Below are positions 3,291 to 32,701 of a stretch of DNA of 64,000 bases, piece by piece. Numbering within the stretch: the first letter of the stretch is position 1; each line of letters begins with the position of its first letter. A program made the position numbers and the translations under genes. The notes under the pieces were generated by a model. That model ran no database searches, had not been told where the DNA came from, and saw only the letters and a program-made list of their open reading frames with translations. This DNA is from a virus (taxonomy: Duplodnaviria > Caudoviricetes), in IMG/VR virus record IMGVR_UViG_3300044611_001018; one strand, written 5' to 3'.

Positions 3291-3362
3291 AGCCCCCGAC
3301 TGGATTTGAACCAGCGACCAACGGTTTACAAAACCGTTGCTCTACCACTGAGCTACAAGGGC
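3291..3362 (-). tRNA. trnT: tRNA-Thr(UGU)
   Basis: GCCCTTG/CGGGGGC acceptor stem, D-arm AGCTCAGTGGTAGAGC, anticodon loop TTTGTAA, T-loop GGTTCAAATCC; no encoded CCA. Confidence 0.95.
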
Positions 3363-3363
3363 A

Positions 3364-3651
3364 TTAATAATCATCTAGTTCTGCTAAAACCTCAGGATTT
3401 TCTAAATCCATTTCAAAAAAACACGGATGTGCTTCTTCCATTATTAAGTATGCAGAAGCTCTGAATAAATCTTCTGCAGTATATGTAAGGTTATTATTAG
3501 CTTCAATAATAGTAGATGGGTCTGCTTCTTCCTCTTCGGTTAAATCATCCCAAGTGAACGGTATAGAATTAACAAAGTACATCATAACAACGTTCTTTAT
3601 ATTTATTTCTGGAGAATGCCAGCAATAAGCTTTGGTGATTCTAAGCTTCAT
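3364..3651 (-). CDS. Hypothetical protein, cyanophage type
   Basis: 95-aa ORF between two tRNAs, acidic C-terminus. Confidence 0.7.
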   Translation of the reverse strand: MKLRITKAYCWHSPEINIKNVVMMYFVNSIPFTWDDLTEEEEADPSTIIEANNNLTYTAEDLFRASAYLIMEEAHPCFFEMDLENPEVLAELDDY

Positions 3652-3726
3652 TCTCTACACCGTTTCTTTATATTTAGTTTAAGGAAGGCGGAGAGTTATA
3701 CTCAATCCCTTTAATATTCCTTCCAG

Positions 3727-3809
3727 TAGGAGCGGGGGGACTTGAACCCCCACAGGCAATGCCCGACAGATTTTAAGTCTGGTGTGTCTACCGATTCCAC
3801 CACGCTCCC
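3727..3809 (-). tRNA. trnL: tRNA-Leu(UAA)
   Basis: GGGAGCG/CGCTCCT acceptor stem, GGAATCGGTAGACAC D-arm, CTTAAAA anticodon loop, variable arm, GGTTCAAGTCC T-loop; no intron. Confidence 0.95.
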
Positions 3810-3817
3810 ATAAGAAC

Positions 3818-4021
3818 TTACACCTTGTAAGTGGGTGGATGATACTTCAAATATTCCCTAAAAGTCATTTTCATTTCTTTTTGGGTCATACCACAGTGTT
3901 TTGCTGCAGCAGGAAGTGTCATCGTACAATTGAAGAGACCTTTGTTTGCTTCCTTGACATTCTCTGGAGTTGTCTTTACAGGCATTTCAAATAGGTCAAT
4001 ATAAAGTGGTTTTGTTTTCAT
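3818..4021 (-). CDS. Small hypothetical protein with an HTH-like segment
   Basis: MTLPAAAKHCGMTQKEMKMTFREY; lies between tRNAs. Confidence 0.65.
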   Translation of the reverse strand: MKTKPLYIDLFEMPVKTTPENVKEANKGLFNCTMTLPAAAKHCGMTQKEMKMTFREYLKYHPPTYKV

Positions 4022-4055
4022 AAGTATTAAGTTTGTAAATCCCCAATTAAGGGGA

Positions 4056-4126
4056 AGCGAATGACGGGGATCGAACCCGTGACACCAACTTGGAAGGATG
4101 GGATGTTACCGCTACACCACATTCGC
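4056..4126 (-). tRNA. trnG: tRNA-Gly(UCC)
   Basis: GCGAATG/CATTCGC acceptor stem, CTTCCAA anticodon loop, GGTTCGATCC T-loop; one U-U mismatch in the anticodon stem. Confidence 0.9.
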
Positions 4127-31020: not shown

Positions 31021-31590
31021 TTAACTCTCCAAATAATTTTTAAAAATTTCTAAAGCAGAATCCCAGTGTATAAACTGTCCCGCTTGGTTGACTGGAACAA
31101 AGCATAACGTCCATCTACCATGCGGTGTGGGATTATTTGTACCGTGCAAAACACCCACGTTAACTAAACTAGGTCGATTTGTATTTGCCTCATAAAGAAG
31201 TTCAGAATCTTCCTCATTTGCCCAAAGATTATCATGGTATTCATCGGTGCTACCCTGATAACCATTCAGTTGCATTCTTTTAGTTTTATCAGACTTCCAC
31301 CATTGTATCACACCTTCTTCAGGTCCCCAAGACATATTAATCTTGGCATGATTTGTATAGTGACCATGATCGGTATGAATCGGAATCTTAGAGAATGGTG
31401 GGGTATAAAATACTTCTTTAAGATGAAGAGTCAATCCAAGGTCAACAAAAAATTCTTCCATTGGATAGAATGGATAATCATTAATATAAAAATGTCTGAT
31501 TTGATTACCCTGTTCCTTAAATAACGGAAGAGGACCAATAGTGAAAGGTAAGTTAAGGTATCTATGATAGGTATTAATCGCAGTATCCAT
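31021..31590 (-). CDS. Fe/2OG-like cupin protein
   Basis: IHTD...LVNVGVLHG...RWTL facial-triad pattern; start set at MDTAIN. Confidence 0.55.
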   Translation of the reverse strand: MDTAINTYHRYLNLPFTIGPLPLFKEQGNQIRHFYINDYPFYPMEEFFVDLGLTLHLKEVFYTPPFSKIPIHTDHGHYTNHAKINMSWGPEEGVIQWWKSDKTKRMQLNGYQGSTDEYHDNLWANEEDSELLYEANTNRPSLVNVGVLHGTNNPTPHGRWTLCFVPVNQAGQFIHWDSALEIFKNYLES

Positions 31591-31738
31591 CGTCATCCTC
31601 AAAGACTTCATCGTAATCGGTTATACTATAATCATATTCTTGTACATAACTTTCTGTATCTGAAAGAACTTCAGATTCTATTTCTTCAATAAGTTGTTTA
31701 AGAGTATTAATTAATAGCTTTAGCTTTTCTCTATCCAT
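31574..31738 (-). CDS. Small acidic hypothetical protein
   Basis: MDREKLKLLINTLK...EIESEVLSD...YDEVFEDDDG. Confidence 0.7.
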   Translation of the reverse strand: MDREKLKLLINTLKQLIEEIESEVLSDTESYVQEYDYSITDYDEVFEDDDGYCD

Positions 31739-31761
31739 TTTTATTAACCTCAACAAAGGTA

Positions 31762-31790
31762 ATTATAGATAAAAAAAAGAGGGGAGTCAA
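31762..31790 (-). promoter_or_regulatory. Sigma70-type promoter built into the terminator hairpin
   Basis: TTGACT (31790-85), 17 nt, TATAAT (31767-62). Confidence 0.65.
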
Positions 31791-31802
31791 GTCCCCTCTT
31801 TA
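31771..31802. terminator. Intrinsic terminator (hairpin with A- and T-tracts)
   Basis: AAAAAAAAGAGGGGA-GTCAAG-TCCCCTCTTTT. Confidence 0.8.
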
Positions 31803-31804
31803 TA

Positions 31805-31906
31805 TTAAGCAATTTGTGGTTGTTTTGCCATATTTAACTGTGCAGCTTTAAGAAGACTTTCCTTCTTTGCTTTTTTCTTGAGGTAACGAACGAAGTAAGT
31901 ATTCAT
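31805..31906 (-). CDS. 33-aa basic peptide
   Basis: MNTYFVRYLKKKAKKESLLKAAQLNMAKQPQIA*; ATGA overlap with the upstream ORF; GGAGG SD. Confidence 0.65.
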   Translation of the reverse strand: MNTYFVRYLKKKAKKESLLKAAQLNMAKQPQIA

Positions 31907-32070
31907 TTTACATTACCTCCCTTTGACTTTTCCATAGAGAATTTGTTTCCATTTTCATCCACCCAGAACATTGTTCCGCGATAGATTTCTACATGAGGTT
32001 CTCTTTTCAAAGTTTGATTTGGGCGGTCGTTGGTGTCATATTCGACACCACGATATACGACTTTAGACAT
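31903..32070 (-). CDS. DUF4278-like small protein (55 aa)
   Basis: MSKVVYRGVEYDT...EIYRGT; two YRG motifs; AAGGAG SD. Confidence 0.8.
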   Translation of the reverse strand: MSKVVYRGVEYDTNDRPNQTLKREPHVEIYRGTMFWVDENGNKFSMEKSKGGNVK

Positions 32071-32101
32071 TAGGGTTCTCCTTAATTTTGAGGCTAAAGA
32101 G

Positions 32102-32270
32102 CGTTCCTTCAGTCGGCTTTTGCGTCTATTTTACACTCTTTGGGAGAGATTTGTTTAATCTCCCAAATTAAATCATTCTTAATCTGTTTAGGAATGTCTT
32201 GTTTATTAACTCTCCCAGCAATTAACTGTGCCTGTAAGCATGAAAGAATGAGTGCTTCCATAGATGAACG
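32102..32270 (-). ncRNA. Glutamine-riboswitch-like aptamer 2 with a 130-nt ORF-containing P2 loop
   Basis: CGTTCA-TCTAT[130 nt]ATAGA-CGCAAAAGCCGACTGAAGGAACG; P1 CGTTC/GAACG and P2 TCTAT/ATAGA. Confidence 0.65.
32109..32261 (-). CDS. 50-aa ORF nested in riboswitch aptamer 2
   Basis: MEALILSCLQAQLIAGRVNKQDIPKQIKNDLIWEIKQISPKECKIDAKAD*. Confidence 0.6.
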   Translation of the reverse strand: MEALILSCLQAQLIAGRVNKQDIPKQIKNDLIWEIKQISPKECKIDAKAD

Positions 32271-32273
32271 TTC

Positions 32274-32313
32274 CGTTCCGAGTCGGCTTACTTCCGTCCC
32301 ATAGGGATGAACG
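32274..32313 (-). ncRNA. Glutamine-riboswitch-like aptamer 1 (glnA-motif-like)
   Basis: CGTTCA-TCCC-TAT-GGGA-CGGAAGTA-AGCCGACT-CGGAACG; P1 CGTTC/GAACG, P2 hairpin, GGAAGUA junction. Confidence 0.75.
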
Positions 32314-32320
32314 TAAGGTC

Positions 32321-32349
32321 ATTATAGACCTATTGCATTATATAGGCAA
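32321..32349 (-). promoter_or_regulatory. Sigma70-type promoter starting just upstream of aptamer 1
   Basis: TTGCCT (32349-44), 17 nt, TATAAT (32326-21). Confidence 0.7.
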
Positions 32350-32356
32350 GTCTTTT

Positions 32357-32372
32357 TGTAAAATGTAATACA
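32357..32372. promoter_or_regulatory. Candidate NtcA box
   Basis: TGTA-AAATGTAA-TACA matches TGTA-N8-TACA. Confidence 0.4.
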
Positions 32373-32374
32373 TT

Positions 32375-32701
32375 TTAATCTCTTTGTCTCCAATCGTCAG
32401 GCTTATCTCTATCTTCCGAAAAGAAATCTACAATATCATCAACACTTTCAAATCTACGAATACCAAAACGTTCGTGACCCAATCCACCAATGTCAAGTTG
32501 ATTTAAAAAATCATCCATATCACCCTTCTTCATGTCGGGATTTTCTGCTGTTCTTCTTGCTTGGCGGAGCATTGTACCTGCGGTCCTATTTGCCTTGGCA
32601 AGTTTCTCTGCCCAAATCATATCATCTAAAGTGACTTCTTGATGTTTAGCAATTTTGTCGCAGATTGCTTCCAAACGAAGTCGATATTGTGTAGAGAGCA
32701 T
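32375..32701 (-). CDS. Conserved hypothetical cyanophage protein
   Basis: MLSTQYRLRLEAIC...DMIWAEKLAKAN...DDFLNQLD. Confidence 0.8.
   Translation of the reverse strand: MLSTQYRLRLEAICDKIAKHQEVTLDDMIWAEKLAKANRTAGTMLRQARRTAENPDMKKGDMDDFLNQLDIGGLGHERFGIRRFESVDDIVDFFSEDRDKPDDWRQRD

What the first reader, a model, noticed from the sequence alone, without database searches (positions are those of the whole stretch)
32102..32313. Tandem glutamine-riboswitch-like aptamers, the second with a complete ORF in its P2 loop
Seen (minus strand): aptamer 1 is CGTTCA-TCCC(TAT)GGGA-CGGAAGTA-AGCCGACT-CGGAACG. Three nt later aptamer 2 is CGTTCA-TCTAT[130 nt]ATAGA-CGCAAA-AGCCGACT-GAAGGAACG. The ATG of a 50-codon ORF starts within the 5' P2 arm, and its last codons (IDAKAD-TGA) are the 3' P2 arm and conserved strand. 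Known: glnA and Downstream-peptide motifs are glutamine riboswitches found in cyanobacteria and their phages, and tandem glnA aptamers are reported. Inference: a ribosome on the nested ORF would unfold aptamer 2, so ligand binding and translation compete. That is a riboswitch/attenuator hybrid sensing host nitrogen status. I do not know of a described riboswitch with a whole CDS in its loop.
Basis: partly seen in the sequence, partly recalled or inferred. Interest (0 to 1): 0.9.

Follow-up and report, generated by a model that had tools for sequence, protein, structure and literature searches.

The report
Gene inside a double glutamine riboswitch
A lake cyanophage starts a small operon with a glutamine-sensing RNA built from two interlocked sensor cores, and one stem closes around a real 50-codon gene; this layout is common in cyanophages, I found no description of it, and it should make nitrogen sensing and translation compete on one RNA.

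Summary
On the minus strand, a short glnA-type unit lies at 32313-32274. Three nucleotides later comes a second unit whose P2 arms (32264-32260 and 32129-32125) enclose 130 nt. A 50-codon ORF starts in the 5' arm and stops at a UGA in the conserved 3' strand.

The ORF is a real gene. In about 120 related phage loci, 122 of 123 long loops hold such an ORF. dN/dS is 0.14-0.29. All 47 subfamilies keep exactly two Cys. P2 covaries across the insert.

"Tandem" is the wrong word. Three features join the two units: a covarying inter-unit P3 helix, a loop-E motif with one half in each unit, and a covarying long-range G:C pair (136 of 136 sequences). Together they form one nested fold. The outer part is a canonical glutamine-I core spanning 32313-32101. 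The inner part is a permuted core that carries the gene. C32101 also begins an anti-SD helix over the ribosome site of a DUF4278/IF17-like gene.

The mechanism is inferred, not shown. Glutamine would turn the IF17-like gene on and hide the nested start codon. Ribosomes on the nested ORF would unfold the sensor.

I found no published description. Other agents of this scan reported the same layout in other phages.

The parts
32321..32349 (-). Sigma-70-type promoter, TTGCCT-17 nt-TATAAT. The predicted start is about 32314, one base before the riboswitch.
   Evidence: 10 of 12 matches. The same layout stands upstream of the first CGTTCA in related loci. Metatranscriptome contigs cover 31879-32319 and none cover 32320-32443 (weak).
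32309..32313 (-). Outer P1, 5' strand CGUUC (strand 1). It pairs with 32102-32106.
   Evidence: Invariant, so there is no covariation. The partner is assigned from the linchpin covariation, from RNAalifold, and from the Rfam model's alignment of the S-CREM1 homologue as one aptamer.
32297..32307 (-). P2a hairpin, UCCC-UAU-GGGA, of the outer junction.
   Evidence: The pairs covary in homologues (AU/UA/GC, CG/UA).
32289..32296 (-). J2/3, CGGAAGUA. It holds G32295 and G32294 (positions 22 and 23 of the solved aptamer) and the 5' half of loop E (GAAGUAA runs into 32288).
   Evidence: The sequence matches the Rfam consensus. The loop-E strands are named in PMC5393176 and PMC6698751. G32294 covaries with the base after strand 4.
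32281..32288 (-). P3 strand a, AGCCGACU. It pairs antiparallel with 32111-32118, giving six standard pairs and two C/A mismatches.
   Evidence: Inter-unit covariation in 184 loci, with variants A..A/U..U, A..G/C..U, C..U/A..G, GGACGACG/CGCCGCCC and the 5-bp AGUCG/CGACU of Syn9. Within-unit pairing fails in 8 of 17 sequences.
32266..32278 (-). Inner P1 hairpin, GAACG-GAA-CGUUC (strands 2 and 3 capped by the linker).
   Evidence: Predicted by RNAfold and RNAalifold. The linker is 3-4 nt in 99 of 105 loci and nearly always starts with G. The pairs are invariant, so this element is inferred.
32260..32264 (-). P2b 5' arm, UCUAU. It contains the A and U of the nested start codon.
   Evidence: P2 covaries across 130-225-nt inserts: 96.5% paired against 73.9% in shuffles, with 3-5 pair types at pairs 3-5.
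32109..32261 (-). Nested gene of 50 codons plus UGA. The product is a two-Cys helical-hairpin protein of the PHROG 504 family.
   Evidence: dN/dS 0.14 in this subfamily; C8 and C43 invariant; AlphaFold2 pLDDT 86, two helices; 307 clusters.
32125..32129 (-). P2b 3' arm, AUAGA (codons Ile-Asp). It is extended by GAGUGU at 32133-32138, which pairs with GCACUC at 32250-32255.
   Evidence: The ends of each insert are more complementary to their own partner than to those of other subfamilies (-12.2 against -9.1 kcal/mol). DSL-LC03 shows a compensatory change in the extension.
32119..32124 (-). Inner J2/3, CGCAAA, which resembles glutamine-II. C32122 can pair with G32273, the first base of the linker.
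   Evidence: Paired in 133 of 136 sequences, but both sides are nearly invariant. This pairing is inferred.
32111..32118 (-). P3 strand b, AGCCGACU. Its last U is the first base of the UGA stop.
   Evidence: In S-SRM01 a compensatory P3 change turns UGA into GGA and the ORF runs on for 5 codons.
32107..32110 (-). J3/1, GAAG. This is the 3' half of loop E (UGAAG including 32111).
32102..32106 (-). Outer P1, 3' strand GAACG (strand 4).
32095..32101 (-). Linchpin C32101, partner of G32294, followed by UCUUUA. Together they form the anti-SD strand CUCUUUA.
   Evidence: The position-23 base and the base after strand 4 are G:C in 52 and C:G in 84 of 136 distinct sequences, and never unpaired. The hairpin is predicted and conserved in the window's group.
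32078..32084 (-). Shine-Dalgarno region UAAGGAG of the downstream gene. It pairs with 32095-32101.
31903..32070 (-). Gene for a 55-aa protein that resembles DUF4278/IF17 and has two YRG motifs. This is the regulated output.
   Evidence: Pfam DUF4278 E 7e-4, below the cut-off; PHROG 5049 E 1.4e-9. Context from PMC6212724.
31805..31906 (-). Lys-rich 33-codon ORF that overlaps the DUF4278-like gene by ATGA.
   Evidence: The same MNTYF... start is seen in S-SRM01 and L055.
31776..31801 (-). Intrinsic terminator with a 10-bp stem and a T run. It ends the roughly 540-nt unit.

Best explanation
The stretch is the 5' leader of a small, probably early phage operon: promoter, riboswitch with nested gene, IF17-like gene, 33-codon ORF, terminator. 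The RNA is one composite glutamine riboswitch rather than two aptamers side by side.

Shown by comparison of sequences:
- An outer core has every feature of the glutamine-I (glnA) aptamer. These are P1 (32313-32309 with 32106-32102), P2a, J2/3 CGGAAGUA, loop E, P3 and the long-range pair G32294:C32101.
- The outer P3 is not a hairpin. It is a helix between the two AGCCGACU octamers.
- This helix opens into an inner, circularly permuted core. That core consists of a capped P1 hairpin (GAACG-GAA-CGUUC), P2b, and a glutamine-II-like CGCAAA.
- P2b closes around a translated-looking gene for a 50-aa two-Cys helical protein. Its AUG lies in the 5' arm of P2b. Its UGA lies at the boundary of P3 and loop E.

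Inferred:
- As in the Synechocystis gifB switch, glutamine fixes the linchpin pair. This pulls C32101 out of the anti-SD helix CUCUUUA/UAAGGAG and turns on translation of the IF17-like protein.
- The same folded state buries the nested start codon.
- A ribosome reading or terminating on the nested ORF strips P2b, P3, loop E and the outer P1.
- The nested protein would therefore be made mainly when glutamine is low or before the 3' half is transcribed, and the IF17-like protein when glutamine is high. Translation rate would set how much RNA is free to sense.

My confidence is about 0.85 for the structure and the gene, and about 0.4 for the reciprocal control.
For: Sequence and Rfam match of unit 1.

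Loop sizes and the nested ORF:
- Loop length is bimodal, 10-39 nt or 130-229 nt, with nothing between.
- 122 of 123 long loops hold an ORF whose ATG lies 9-12 nt after the first C of CGTTCA. Only 2.3% of shuffled inserts are open.
- dN/dS is 0.14-0.29 in 8 subfamilies.
- There are exactly two Cys, 31-40 residues apart, in all 47 subfamilies.
- The AlphaFold2 model is a helical hairpin with pLDDT 86.
- Loci chosen by protein alone: 41 of 41 have CGTTCA before the ATG, and 39 of 41 match the 3'-strand pattern after the stop (a 40th, L131, carries the compact Syn9-type form); only L195 lacks it.

Fold:
- P2 covaries across the insert.
- The inter-unit P3 covaries, while the within-unit alternative fails.
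- The two loop-E strands defined in the literature, GAAGUAA and UGAAG, sit in different units.
- The linchpin covaries in 136 of 136 distinct sequences. The tandem pairing gives only 84 of 136.
- RNAalifold predicts the outer P1 and the inner hairpin.
- The Rfam glnA model aligns the short S-CREM1 homologue as one aptamer with a 56-nt insert in P3.

Expression platform: the anti-SD hairpin starts at the linchpin C, which matches the mechanism proposed for gifB (PMC6212724).

Metatranscriptome contigs bridge the aptamer strands, the ORF and the start of the downstream gene.
Against: - No ligand binding, structure probing or translation data exist for this RNA.
- The P1 strands are invariant, so the P1 partners rest on the linchpin, loop E and analogy with the solved aptamer, not on P1 covariation.
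- Nearest-neighbour energies do not favour the nested fold: -51.7 against -54.8 kcal/mol for the tandem fold.
- The nested ORF has no clear Shine-Dalgarno sequence.
- The anti-SD helix is conserved only in the window's group and shows no covariation.
- One locus (L195) keeps both ORFs after losing the inner strands and the downstream gene, so the proteins can function without the switch.
- A ribosome terminating at UGA could open the anti-SD helix and couple the two genes positively, the opposite of reciprocal control.
- RNA contigs may include DNA carry-over and reads from relatives.
Confidence: 0.6

Rival explanations
1. The nested fold is the same, but the ORFs are passengers. The P2 loops of the riboswitch tolerate insertions, and a compact phage genome has parked small genes there. 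The switch controls only the IF17-like gene, and the overlap of start and stop codons with aptamer strands reflects genome streamlining rather than regulation.
For: P2 loops vary in short forms. All four combinations of short and long loops exist: s-L 53, L-L 27, s-s 16, L-s 9. The C-terminal residues are dictated by the RNA (DAKAD or GRK) and are replaced when the RNA context changes (L069 and L195). The ORFs persist in a locus that has lost the switch (L195).
Against: A ribosome on the ORF cannot coexist with P2b, P3, loop E and the outer P1, so some coupling is physically unavoidable. The ATG lies inside the 5' arm in 122 of 123 cases. Nearly all family members found lie inside aptamers. 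The ends of the ORFs have co-evolved complementarity.
Confidence: 0.25
2. These are two side-by-side aptamers, each closing its own P1 (strand 1 with 2, strand 3 with 4), that merely touch through a kissing helix between their AGCCGACU segments.
For: The P1 sequences are identical, so this pairing is possible. Nearest-neighbour energy is slightly better at -54.8 kcal/mol. Each unit alone scores about 33 bits against Rfam. Unit 1 can fold before unit 2 is transcribed, so this may be a transient or ligand-free state.
Against: The long-range pair of unit 1's J2/3 covaries with the base after strand 4, not the base after strand 2 (136 of 136 against 84 of 136). Neither unit has both halves of loop E. 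The Rfam model and RNAalifold choose the outer P1.
Confidence: 0.07
3. This is the first reader's model: two independent tandem glutamine aptamers giving a more digital response, with the second simply having a large P2 loop.
For: Tandem glnA RNAs are reported (PMC2864571). The motifs read well as two units.
Against: Within-unit P3 pairing is broken in 8 of 17 distinct short tandems, while the inter-unit pairing is kept in all of them. Syn9-type phages have a 5-nt P3 strand per unit that can pair only between units. The linchpin and loop-E evidence applies as above.
Confidence: 0.03
4. The split 'aptamer' is not a working sensor. Its halves are kept for other reasons, such as coding or protein binding, and the ORF is just an ordinary small gene between relics.
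For: Rfam does not detect unit 2. There is no biochemical evidence.
Against: The RNA-level covariation in P2, P3 and the linchpin cannot be explained by coding. The core strands are identical to those of short-loop homologues at all 30 invariant columns. The elements always stand upstream of a DUF4278-like gene, as cellular glutamine riboswitches do.
Confidence: 0.03

Closest known systems
Glutamine-I riboswitch (glnA RNA motif, Rfam RF01739). Examples are the Synechocystis gifB leader (Klahn 2018, PMC6212724) and the solved Synechococcus aptamer of Ren 2015, as cited in PMC6698751.
   Same: P1 CGUUC/GAACG, a P2 hairpin, J2/3 CGGAAGUA, loop E, P3, and a long-range G:C pair whose C begins a helix over the ribosome binding site. 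It stands upstream of a DUF4278/IF17-type gene. By analogy it is probably an ON switch.
   Different: P3 is not a hairpin. It is a helix formed with a second copy of the motif and opens into an inner, permuted core. P2 of either core can hold a 45-68-codon gene. The sensor spans 213 nt instead of about 60. It is found in phages.
Glutamine-II riboswitch (Downstream-peptide motif, RF01704; structure in PMC6698751)
   Same: The inner core has the CGCA-type linker and a C:G rather than G:C long-range pair, as in glutamine-II. It has the same CGUUC/GGAACG ligand-site helix and the same class of downstream gene.
   Different: The pseudoknot that defines glutamine-II is absent. The Rfam score is only 14.1 bits in the window.
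Tandem riboswitch arrangements, such as tandem glnA RNAs in Weinberg 2010 and the two-aptamer glycine riboswitch (the glycine case is from my own knowledge)
   Same: Two ligand-site cores lie in one leader and may act cooperatively.
   Different: Here the cores share a helix and are nested, with one circularly permuted, rather than being adjacent domains that dock.
Structured RNAs with ORFs in peripheral loops: group I and II introns with homing-endonuclease or maturase ORFs (own knowledge), and HEARO RNA 'contains an ORF' (Weinberg 2010 supplement)
   Same: A conserved RNA fold closes around a protein-coding insert, and translation and folding exclude each other.
   Different: Those are ribozymes or guide RNAs of mobile elements. 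Here the fold is a metabolite sensor in an mRNA leader, and the ORF's start and stop codons are built from core aptamer nucleotides.
Leader-peptide attenuation and regulatory upstream ORFs (own knowledge)
   Same: A short ORF in a leader whose translation remodels the downstream RNA structure.
   Different: The nested product is a conserved folded protein under purifying selection. There is no run of regulatory codons: Gln content is 3.6% against a background of 3.4%. No terminator or antiterminator pair is present.

Membership tests
Glutamine-I riboswitch (glnA RNA, RF01739) | P1 helix CGUUC/GAACG bearing the ligand site | tested here: met
   Four copies of the strands are present. They are invariant in all relatives, so there is no covariation. 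The outer pairing of strand 1 with strand 4 is chosen by RNAalifold and by the Rfam model on the S-CREM1 homologue.
Glutamine-I riboswitch (glnA RNA, RF01739) | P2 hairpin next to P1, supported by covariation | tested here: met
   P2a and P2b covary. P2b covaries across inserts of 130-225 nt.
Glutamine-I riboswitch (glnA RNA, RF01739) | Loop-E motif (GAAGUAA opposite UGAAG) flanking P3 | tested here: met
   Both strands are present, but one lies in each unit (32294-32288 and 32111-32107). The motif is defined in PMC5393176 and PMC6698751. It is met only for the composite fold.
Glutamine-I riboswitch (glnA RNA, RF01739) | P3 helix of a three-way junction | tested here: met
   It is present as an inter-unit helix with compensatory changes. 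A within-unit hairpin is not supported.
Glutamine-I riboswitch (glnA RNA, RF01739) | Long-range Watson-Crick pair (G23:C60 of the solved aptamer) capping P1 | tested here: met
   G32294 pairs with C32101. The pair is G:C in 52 and C:G in 84 of 136 distinct relatives and is never unpaired.
Glutamine-I riboswitch (glnA RNA, RF01739) | Score at or above Rfam's gathering threshold (35 bits) | tested here: not met
   Unit 1 scores 33.2 bits and unit 2 is not detected. The composite cannot be scored because the insert exceeds what the model can span. Relatives score 34.2-35.6 bits.
Glutamine-I riboswitch (glnA RNA, RF01739) | Selective binding of L-glutamine | not testable with these tools
   This needs in-line probing, ITC or SHAPE.
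Glutamine-I riboswitch (glnA RNA, RF01739) | Location in the 5' leader of a DUF4278/IF17-type or nitrogen-metabolism gene | tested here: met
   The downstream 55-aa protein has two YRG motifs, Pfam DUF4278 E 7e-4 and PHROG 5049 E 1.4e-9. The association is documented in PMC6212724.
Glutamine-II riboswitch (RF01704) | Pseudoknot helix formed by the strand 3' of GGAACG | tested here: not met
   The score is 14.1 bits against a threshold of 33. No pseudoknot partner was seen.
PHROG 504 (phage protein family of unknown function) for the nested ORF | Profile match | tested here: met
   The window ORF has E 2.8e-4 and the P-RSM6 homologue has E 3e-17. A profile of 36 nested ORFs finds 307 clusters.
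Pfam DUF4278 (IF17-like) for the downstream gene | Score above the Pfam cut-off (25.3 bits) | tested here: not met
   The score is 20.3 bits, E 7e-4. YRG motifs are present. It is best called DUF4278-like.
Leader-peptide attenuator | Regulatory codons for the sensed amino acid, and alternative terminator and antiterminator hairpins | tested here: not met
   Gln content is at background across 47 subfamilies. No terminator lies between the ORF and the next gene.

The most novel reading that the evidence does not exclude
The leader is a two-site, mechanically coupled glutamine sensor. A canonical outer core and a circularly permuted inner core share one P3 helix. Its folding is gated by ribosomes on genes carried inside its stems. 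One ligand therefore gives opposite outputs: the two-Cys small proteins when glutamine is low, and an IF17-like inhibitor of glutamine synthetase when it is high. The translation rate of the nested genes acts as a second input. What the literature lists as 'tandem' phage glnA riboswitches would be this single nested device.
Probability: 0.35. Interest if true: 0.92.

Novelty: new variant of a known kind. Interest (0 to 1): 0.85.

Why it matters
Riboswitch aptamers are regarded as compact non-coding domains of about 35-200 nt that lie upstream of the genes they control. In this natural case, which is abundant in cyanophages, the stems of the sensor close around translated genes, and two sensor cores are nested through a shared helix. 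This has four consequences.

- Covariance-model scans under-count and mis-annotate these switches. Rfam sees at most one weak half.
- The layout gives a physical way to integrate metabolite sensing with ribosome traffic.
- It suggests that cyanophages tune host nitrogen metabolism, through IF17-like proteins that may inhibit glutamine synthetase, according to the host's glutamine level.
- It defines a family of over 300 clusters of two-Cys small proteins whose expression is tied to that sensor.

The layout occurs in model phages with genetic and transcriptomic resources (Syn9 gp196-198, P-SSM4, P-HM2), so it can be tested directly.

Tried and rejected
- The Rfam scan at gathering thresholds found only three tRNAs in the window.
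- A covariance model built from 23 short-loop unit-2 aptamers hit unit 1 at 26.7 bits. For unit 2 it hit only the 3' half, through a spurious local alignment.
- Nearest-neighbour folding does not separate the nested fold from the tandem fold. The z-score of the whole leader is only -2.0.
- The nested protein has no Pfam family, no PDB fold match, and no informative ESM Atlas neighbour.
- Gln-codon enrichment, which would point to a leader-peptide sensor, is rejected. Only the window's own subfamily is Q-rich at 10%, and the family mean equals the background.
- The N-terminal hydrophobic segment is too variable to be called a signal peptide. The first Cys lies anywhere from residue 8 to residue 32.
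- A scan of 185,579 species genomes for the unit-2 strand gave 3 hits. All are small MAG contigs or a 189-kb phage-sized contig in a single-cell assembly, so there is no evidence for a cellular version.
- Metatranscriptome contigs cover 31879-32319 and leave 32320-32443 empty. This is consistent with the predicted start site, but the contigs come from mixed relatives, could include DNA, and cannot show RNA ends, so I do not count the gap as evidence.
- The Ames and Breaker 2011 paper is not held in the library, so I could not check whether it mentions large P2 inserts. The glnA alignment file of Weinberg 2010 carries no ORF annotation.
Full report
OBSERVATION

- Unit 1 is CGTTCA-TCCC-TAT-GGGA-CGGAAGTA-AGCCGACT-C-GGAACG at 32313-32274.
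- A GAA linker follows.
- Unit 2 starts with CGTTCA-TCTAT at 32270-32260, has a 130-nt insert at 32259-32130, and ends with ATAGA-CGCAAA-AGCCGACT-GAAG-GAACG at 32129-32102.
- The ORF at 32261-32109 has 50 codons. Its ATG lies in the 5' arm and its TGA in the conserved 3' strand.

At gathering thresholds Rfam finds only three tRNAs in the window. At relaxed thresholds unit 1 matches the glutamine riboswitch model RF01739 at 33.2 bits, just under the 35-bit cut-off. Unit 2 is not reported at all.

SETTING

The window comes from an uncultured virus record of 125.8 kb. Near-identical DNA is found in lake-water metagenomes. Its neighbours (thyX, speD, 2OG oxygenases) and its closest isolates are T4-like cyanophages.

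The transcription unit is laid out as follows.
- A sigma-70-type promoter, TTGCCT-17-TATAAT, ends at 32321. The transcript should therefore begin about one base before the first CGTTCA.
- After the riboswitch comes a 55-aa protein with two YRG motifs. It resembles DUF4278 (Pfam E 7e-4, PHROG 5049 E 1.4e-9).
- A 33-codon ORF overlaps that gene by ATGA.
- A strong terminator lies at 31801-31776.

DUF4278 marks IF17, the inactivating factor of glutamine synthetase. It is the usual gene downstream of cellular glutamine riboswitches, which act as ON switches (PMC6212724).

THE ORF-IN-LOOP LAYOUT IS GENERAL

Four isolates have the same split unit 2 with an ORF: DSL-LC02, DSL-LC03, S-SRM01 and P-RSM6. 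S-CREM1 has an ordinary short hairpin at the same place, annotated as a glnA riboswitch.

Across these loci:
- P2-loop length is bimodal, 10-39 nt or 130-229 nt, with nothing between.
- 122 of 123 long loops contain an ORF whose ATG lies 9-12 nt after the first C of CGTTCA and which fills the loop. Only 2.3% of shuffled inserts are open.
- Either unit can carry a gene. The architectures are short-long 53, long-long 27, short-short 16 and long-short 9.
- ORFs in unit 2 end ...DA(K/N)AD-UGA in 80 of 86 cases.
- ORFs in unit 1 end ...GRK-UAA inside CGCAAGUAAG, or stop a few bases before the 3' arm.

In both units the conserved RNA core supplies the stop codon at the boundary of loop E and P3.

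Model phages have the long-long form. Examples are Syn9 gp196 and gp197 followed by the YRG protein gp198, P-SSM4 169.2 and 169.3, P-HM2 179 and 180, S-TIM5, S-CAM1 and S-IOM18.

THE NESTED ORF IS A GENE

- dN/dS is 0.14-0.29 in eight subfamilies, and third-position changes dominate.
- An alignment of 36 diverse members has only two invariant columns, both Cys.
- All 47 subfamilies have exactly two Cys, 31-40 residues apart, after a hydrophobic N-terminus.
- AlphaFold2 gives a two-helix hairpin with pLDDT 86.
- The family is PHROG 504, of unknown function. It has 307 clusters at 50% identity. No Pfam family or PDB relative was found.
- In loci chosen by protein sequence alone, 41 of 41 have CGTTCA directly before the ATG. 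39 of 41 match the 3'-strand pattern after the stop, and a 40th (L131) carries the compact Syn9-type form.
- The one exception, L195, has lost the inner strands and the downstream gene but keeps both ORFs.
- The same protein subfamily occurs in either unit with its tail rewritten as GRK or DAKAD (L011 and L069). The last residues are therefore dictated by the RNA.

RNA STRUCTURE AROUND THE INSERT

I assigned partners by position only, without any complementarity filter. The five P2 pairs are then standard pairs in 96.5% of cells over 40 distinct arm pairs. Shuffles give 73.9% (sd 2.4). Pairs 3-5 show three to five pair types each.

Beyond the arms, the first and last 30 nt of each insert are more complementary to each other than to the ends of other subfamilies: -12.2 against -9.1 kcal/mol, and p about 1e-7 when each subfamily counts once. 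In the window this extension is GCACUC at 32255-32250 pairing with GAGUGU at 32138-32133. DSL-LC03 carries a compensatory change in it.

NOT TANDEM BUT NESTED

Notes from other agents of this scan suggested a nested fold. I tested that here in five ways.

1. P3. The two AGCCGACU octamers pair with each other antiparallel.
   - In 184 loci the end positions covary between units. The variants are AGCCGACA with UGCCGACU (19 loci), AGCCGACG with CGCCGACU (20), CGCCGACU with AGCCGACG (S-SRM01, where this change removes the UGA stop), and GGACGACG with CGCCGCCC.
   - Syn9-type phages have a clean 5-bp AGUCG/CGACU.
   - On 17 distinct short tandems, the inter-unit pair is UA 9, AU 6 and GC 2. The within-unit alternative is unpaired in 8 of 17.
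2. Loop E. The loop-E motif of the glutamine-I aptamer is GAAGUAA opposite UGAAG (PMC5393176, PMC6698751). Unit 1 has only the first strand and unit 2 only the second. They flank the same end of the inter-unit P3.
3. Linchpin. The long-range pair that glutamine stabilises is G23:C60 in the solved aptamer.
   - The J2/3 base of unit 1 (G or C) pairs with the first base after the last GAACG (C or G) in 136 of 136 distinct sequences: 52 G:C and 84 C:G.
   - With the base after unit 1's own GAACG, it pairs in only 84 of 136.
4. RNAalifold on the short tandems predicts strand 1 pairing with strand 4, and a GAACG-loop-CGUUC hairpin inside.
5. On a small search space, Rfam's own model aligns the S-CREM1 tandem as one aptamer with a 56-nt insert in P3 (34.4 bits). 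This agrees with the 99-nt annotation in that phage's paper.

The outer core is therefore a complete glutamine-I aptamer spanning 32313-32101. The inner core (capped P1, P2b with the gene, CGCAAA, and the shared P3) is a circular permutation with glutamine-II-like features. Whether it binds a second glutamine is unknown.

The linker that caps the inner P1 is 3-4 nt in 99 of 105 loci. The P1 strands never vary, so the P1 partners rest on points 2 to 5. A tandem-plus-kissing fold may exist as a transient state.

EXPRESSION PLATFORM

C32101, the linchpin partner, is the first base of CUCUUUA (32101-32095). This strand pairs with UAAGGAG (32084-32078), the ribosome site of the DUF4278-like gene. 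The design matches the one proposed for gifB, where glutamine binding melts the helix attached to P1 and frees the ribosome site.

The helix is conserved in the window's group but has no covariation. Other groups have different sequences there.

HOW IT MOST LIKELY WORKS (INFERENCE)

With glutamine, the whole 213-nt fold locks. C32101 leaves the anti-SD helix and the IF17-like protein is made. At the same time the AUG of the nested gene is held in P2b, directly after the inner P1 hairpin.

Without glutamine, or during the seconds before the 3' half is transcribed, the AUG is free.

A ribosome reading the ORF unwinds P2b. When it terminates at UGA it covers P3, loop E, the outer P1 and probably the anti-SD strand. 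Sensing and translation therefore exclude each other.

The sign of the coupling between the two genes is open. It could be reciprocal control, or positive coupling through the terminating ribosome. Gln codons are not enriched in the family, so this is not a classical leader-peptide sensor.

RNA EVIDENCE

Contigs from metatranscriptomes bridge unit 1, the ORF, the 3' strand and the start of the downstream gene. They come from close relatives rather than from this phage alone. This fits one transcript but proves neither the RNA ends nor translation.

NOVELTY

I searched the open literature. I also searched the first 200 of the 438 supplementary files of Weinberg 2010 that are held as text, which include its glnA alignment file. 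I found tandem glnA RNAs, phage glnA annotations and the gifB mechanism. I found no description of genes inside the aptamer or of a nested double core.

The Ames and Breaker 2011 paper could not be read. Several agents of this scan reached the same reading on other cyanophage windows, so the scan has found this before on other DNA. My tests are independent of theirs.

I class the finding as a new variant of a known riboswitch class, with high interest.

Noticed in passing
window 31805-31906 (-): A Lys-rich 33-codon ORF (MNTYFVRYLKKKAKK...) overlaps the DUF4278-like gene by ATGA and ends just before the terminator. The same start is seen in S-SRM01 and in contig L055, so it is probably a real third small gene of the operon.
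   Followed up: partly
L002 (S-SRM01) 640-830: A compensatory change in the inter-unit P3 helix (unit 1 A to C, unit 2 U to G) converts the nested ORF's UGA stop to GGA. The ORF runs on for 5 codons to a UAA. This is a case where RNA pairing overrode the stop codon.
   Followed up: yes
L195 330-1004: This is a degenerate locus. The 3' strand of unit 1, the 5' strand of unit 2, the unit-2 core and the DUF4278-like gene are all gone, yet both nested ORFs are intact. The second now ends KIPSINNDT instead of KIDAKAD.
   Followed up: partly
L011 3074-3265 and L069 1690-1887: The same protein subfamily (MP.L.YLSLLASHEPVHWTIKC...) sits in unit 1 in one phage, with tail ...GRK, and in unit 2 in another, with tail ...DAKAD. 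Gene cassettes have therefore moved between the two stems.
   Followed up: partly
L003 (DSL-LC03) 637-792: The nested ORF is not annotated in the GenBank record of this isolate, although it is intact and 61% identical to the window's protein.
   Followed up: no
L004 (P-RSM6) 1069-1254: A strong manA RNA (188 bits) lies directly downstream of the riboswitch operon and upstream of the transaldolase gene. L110 also shows a manA-like sequence just upstream of its riboswitch. No manA RNA is present in this window.
   Followed up: no
window 31762-31790 (-): A near-consensus promoter, TTGACT-17-TATAAT (11 of 12 matches), overlaps the terminator hairpin of the riboswitch operon. It could drive the next small acidic ORF at 31574-31756.
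   Followed up: no
window 3291-4126 (-): A cluster of three tRNA genes scores 56-72 bits.
   Followed up: no
window 32109-32261 (-): The window's subfamily of the nested protein is unusually Gln-rich (5 of 50 residues, 10%) compared with a family mean of 3.6%. I have no explanation.
   Followed up: partly
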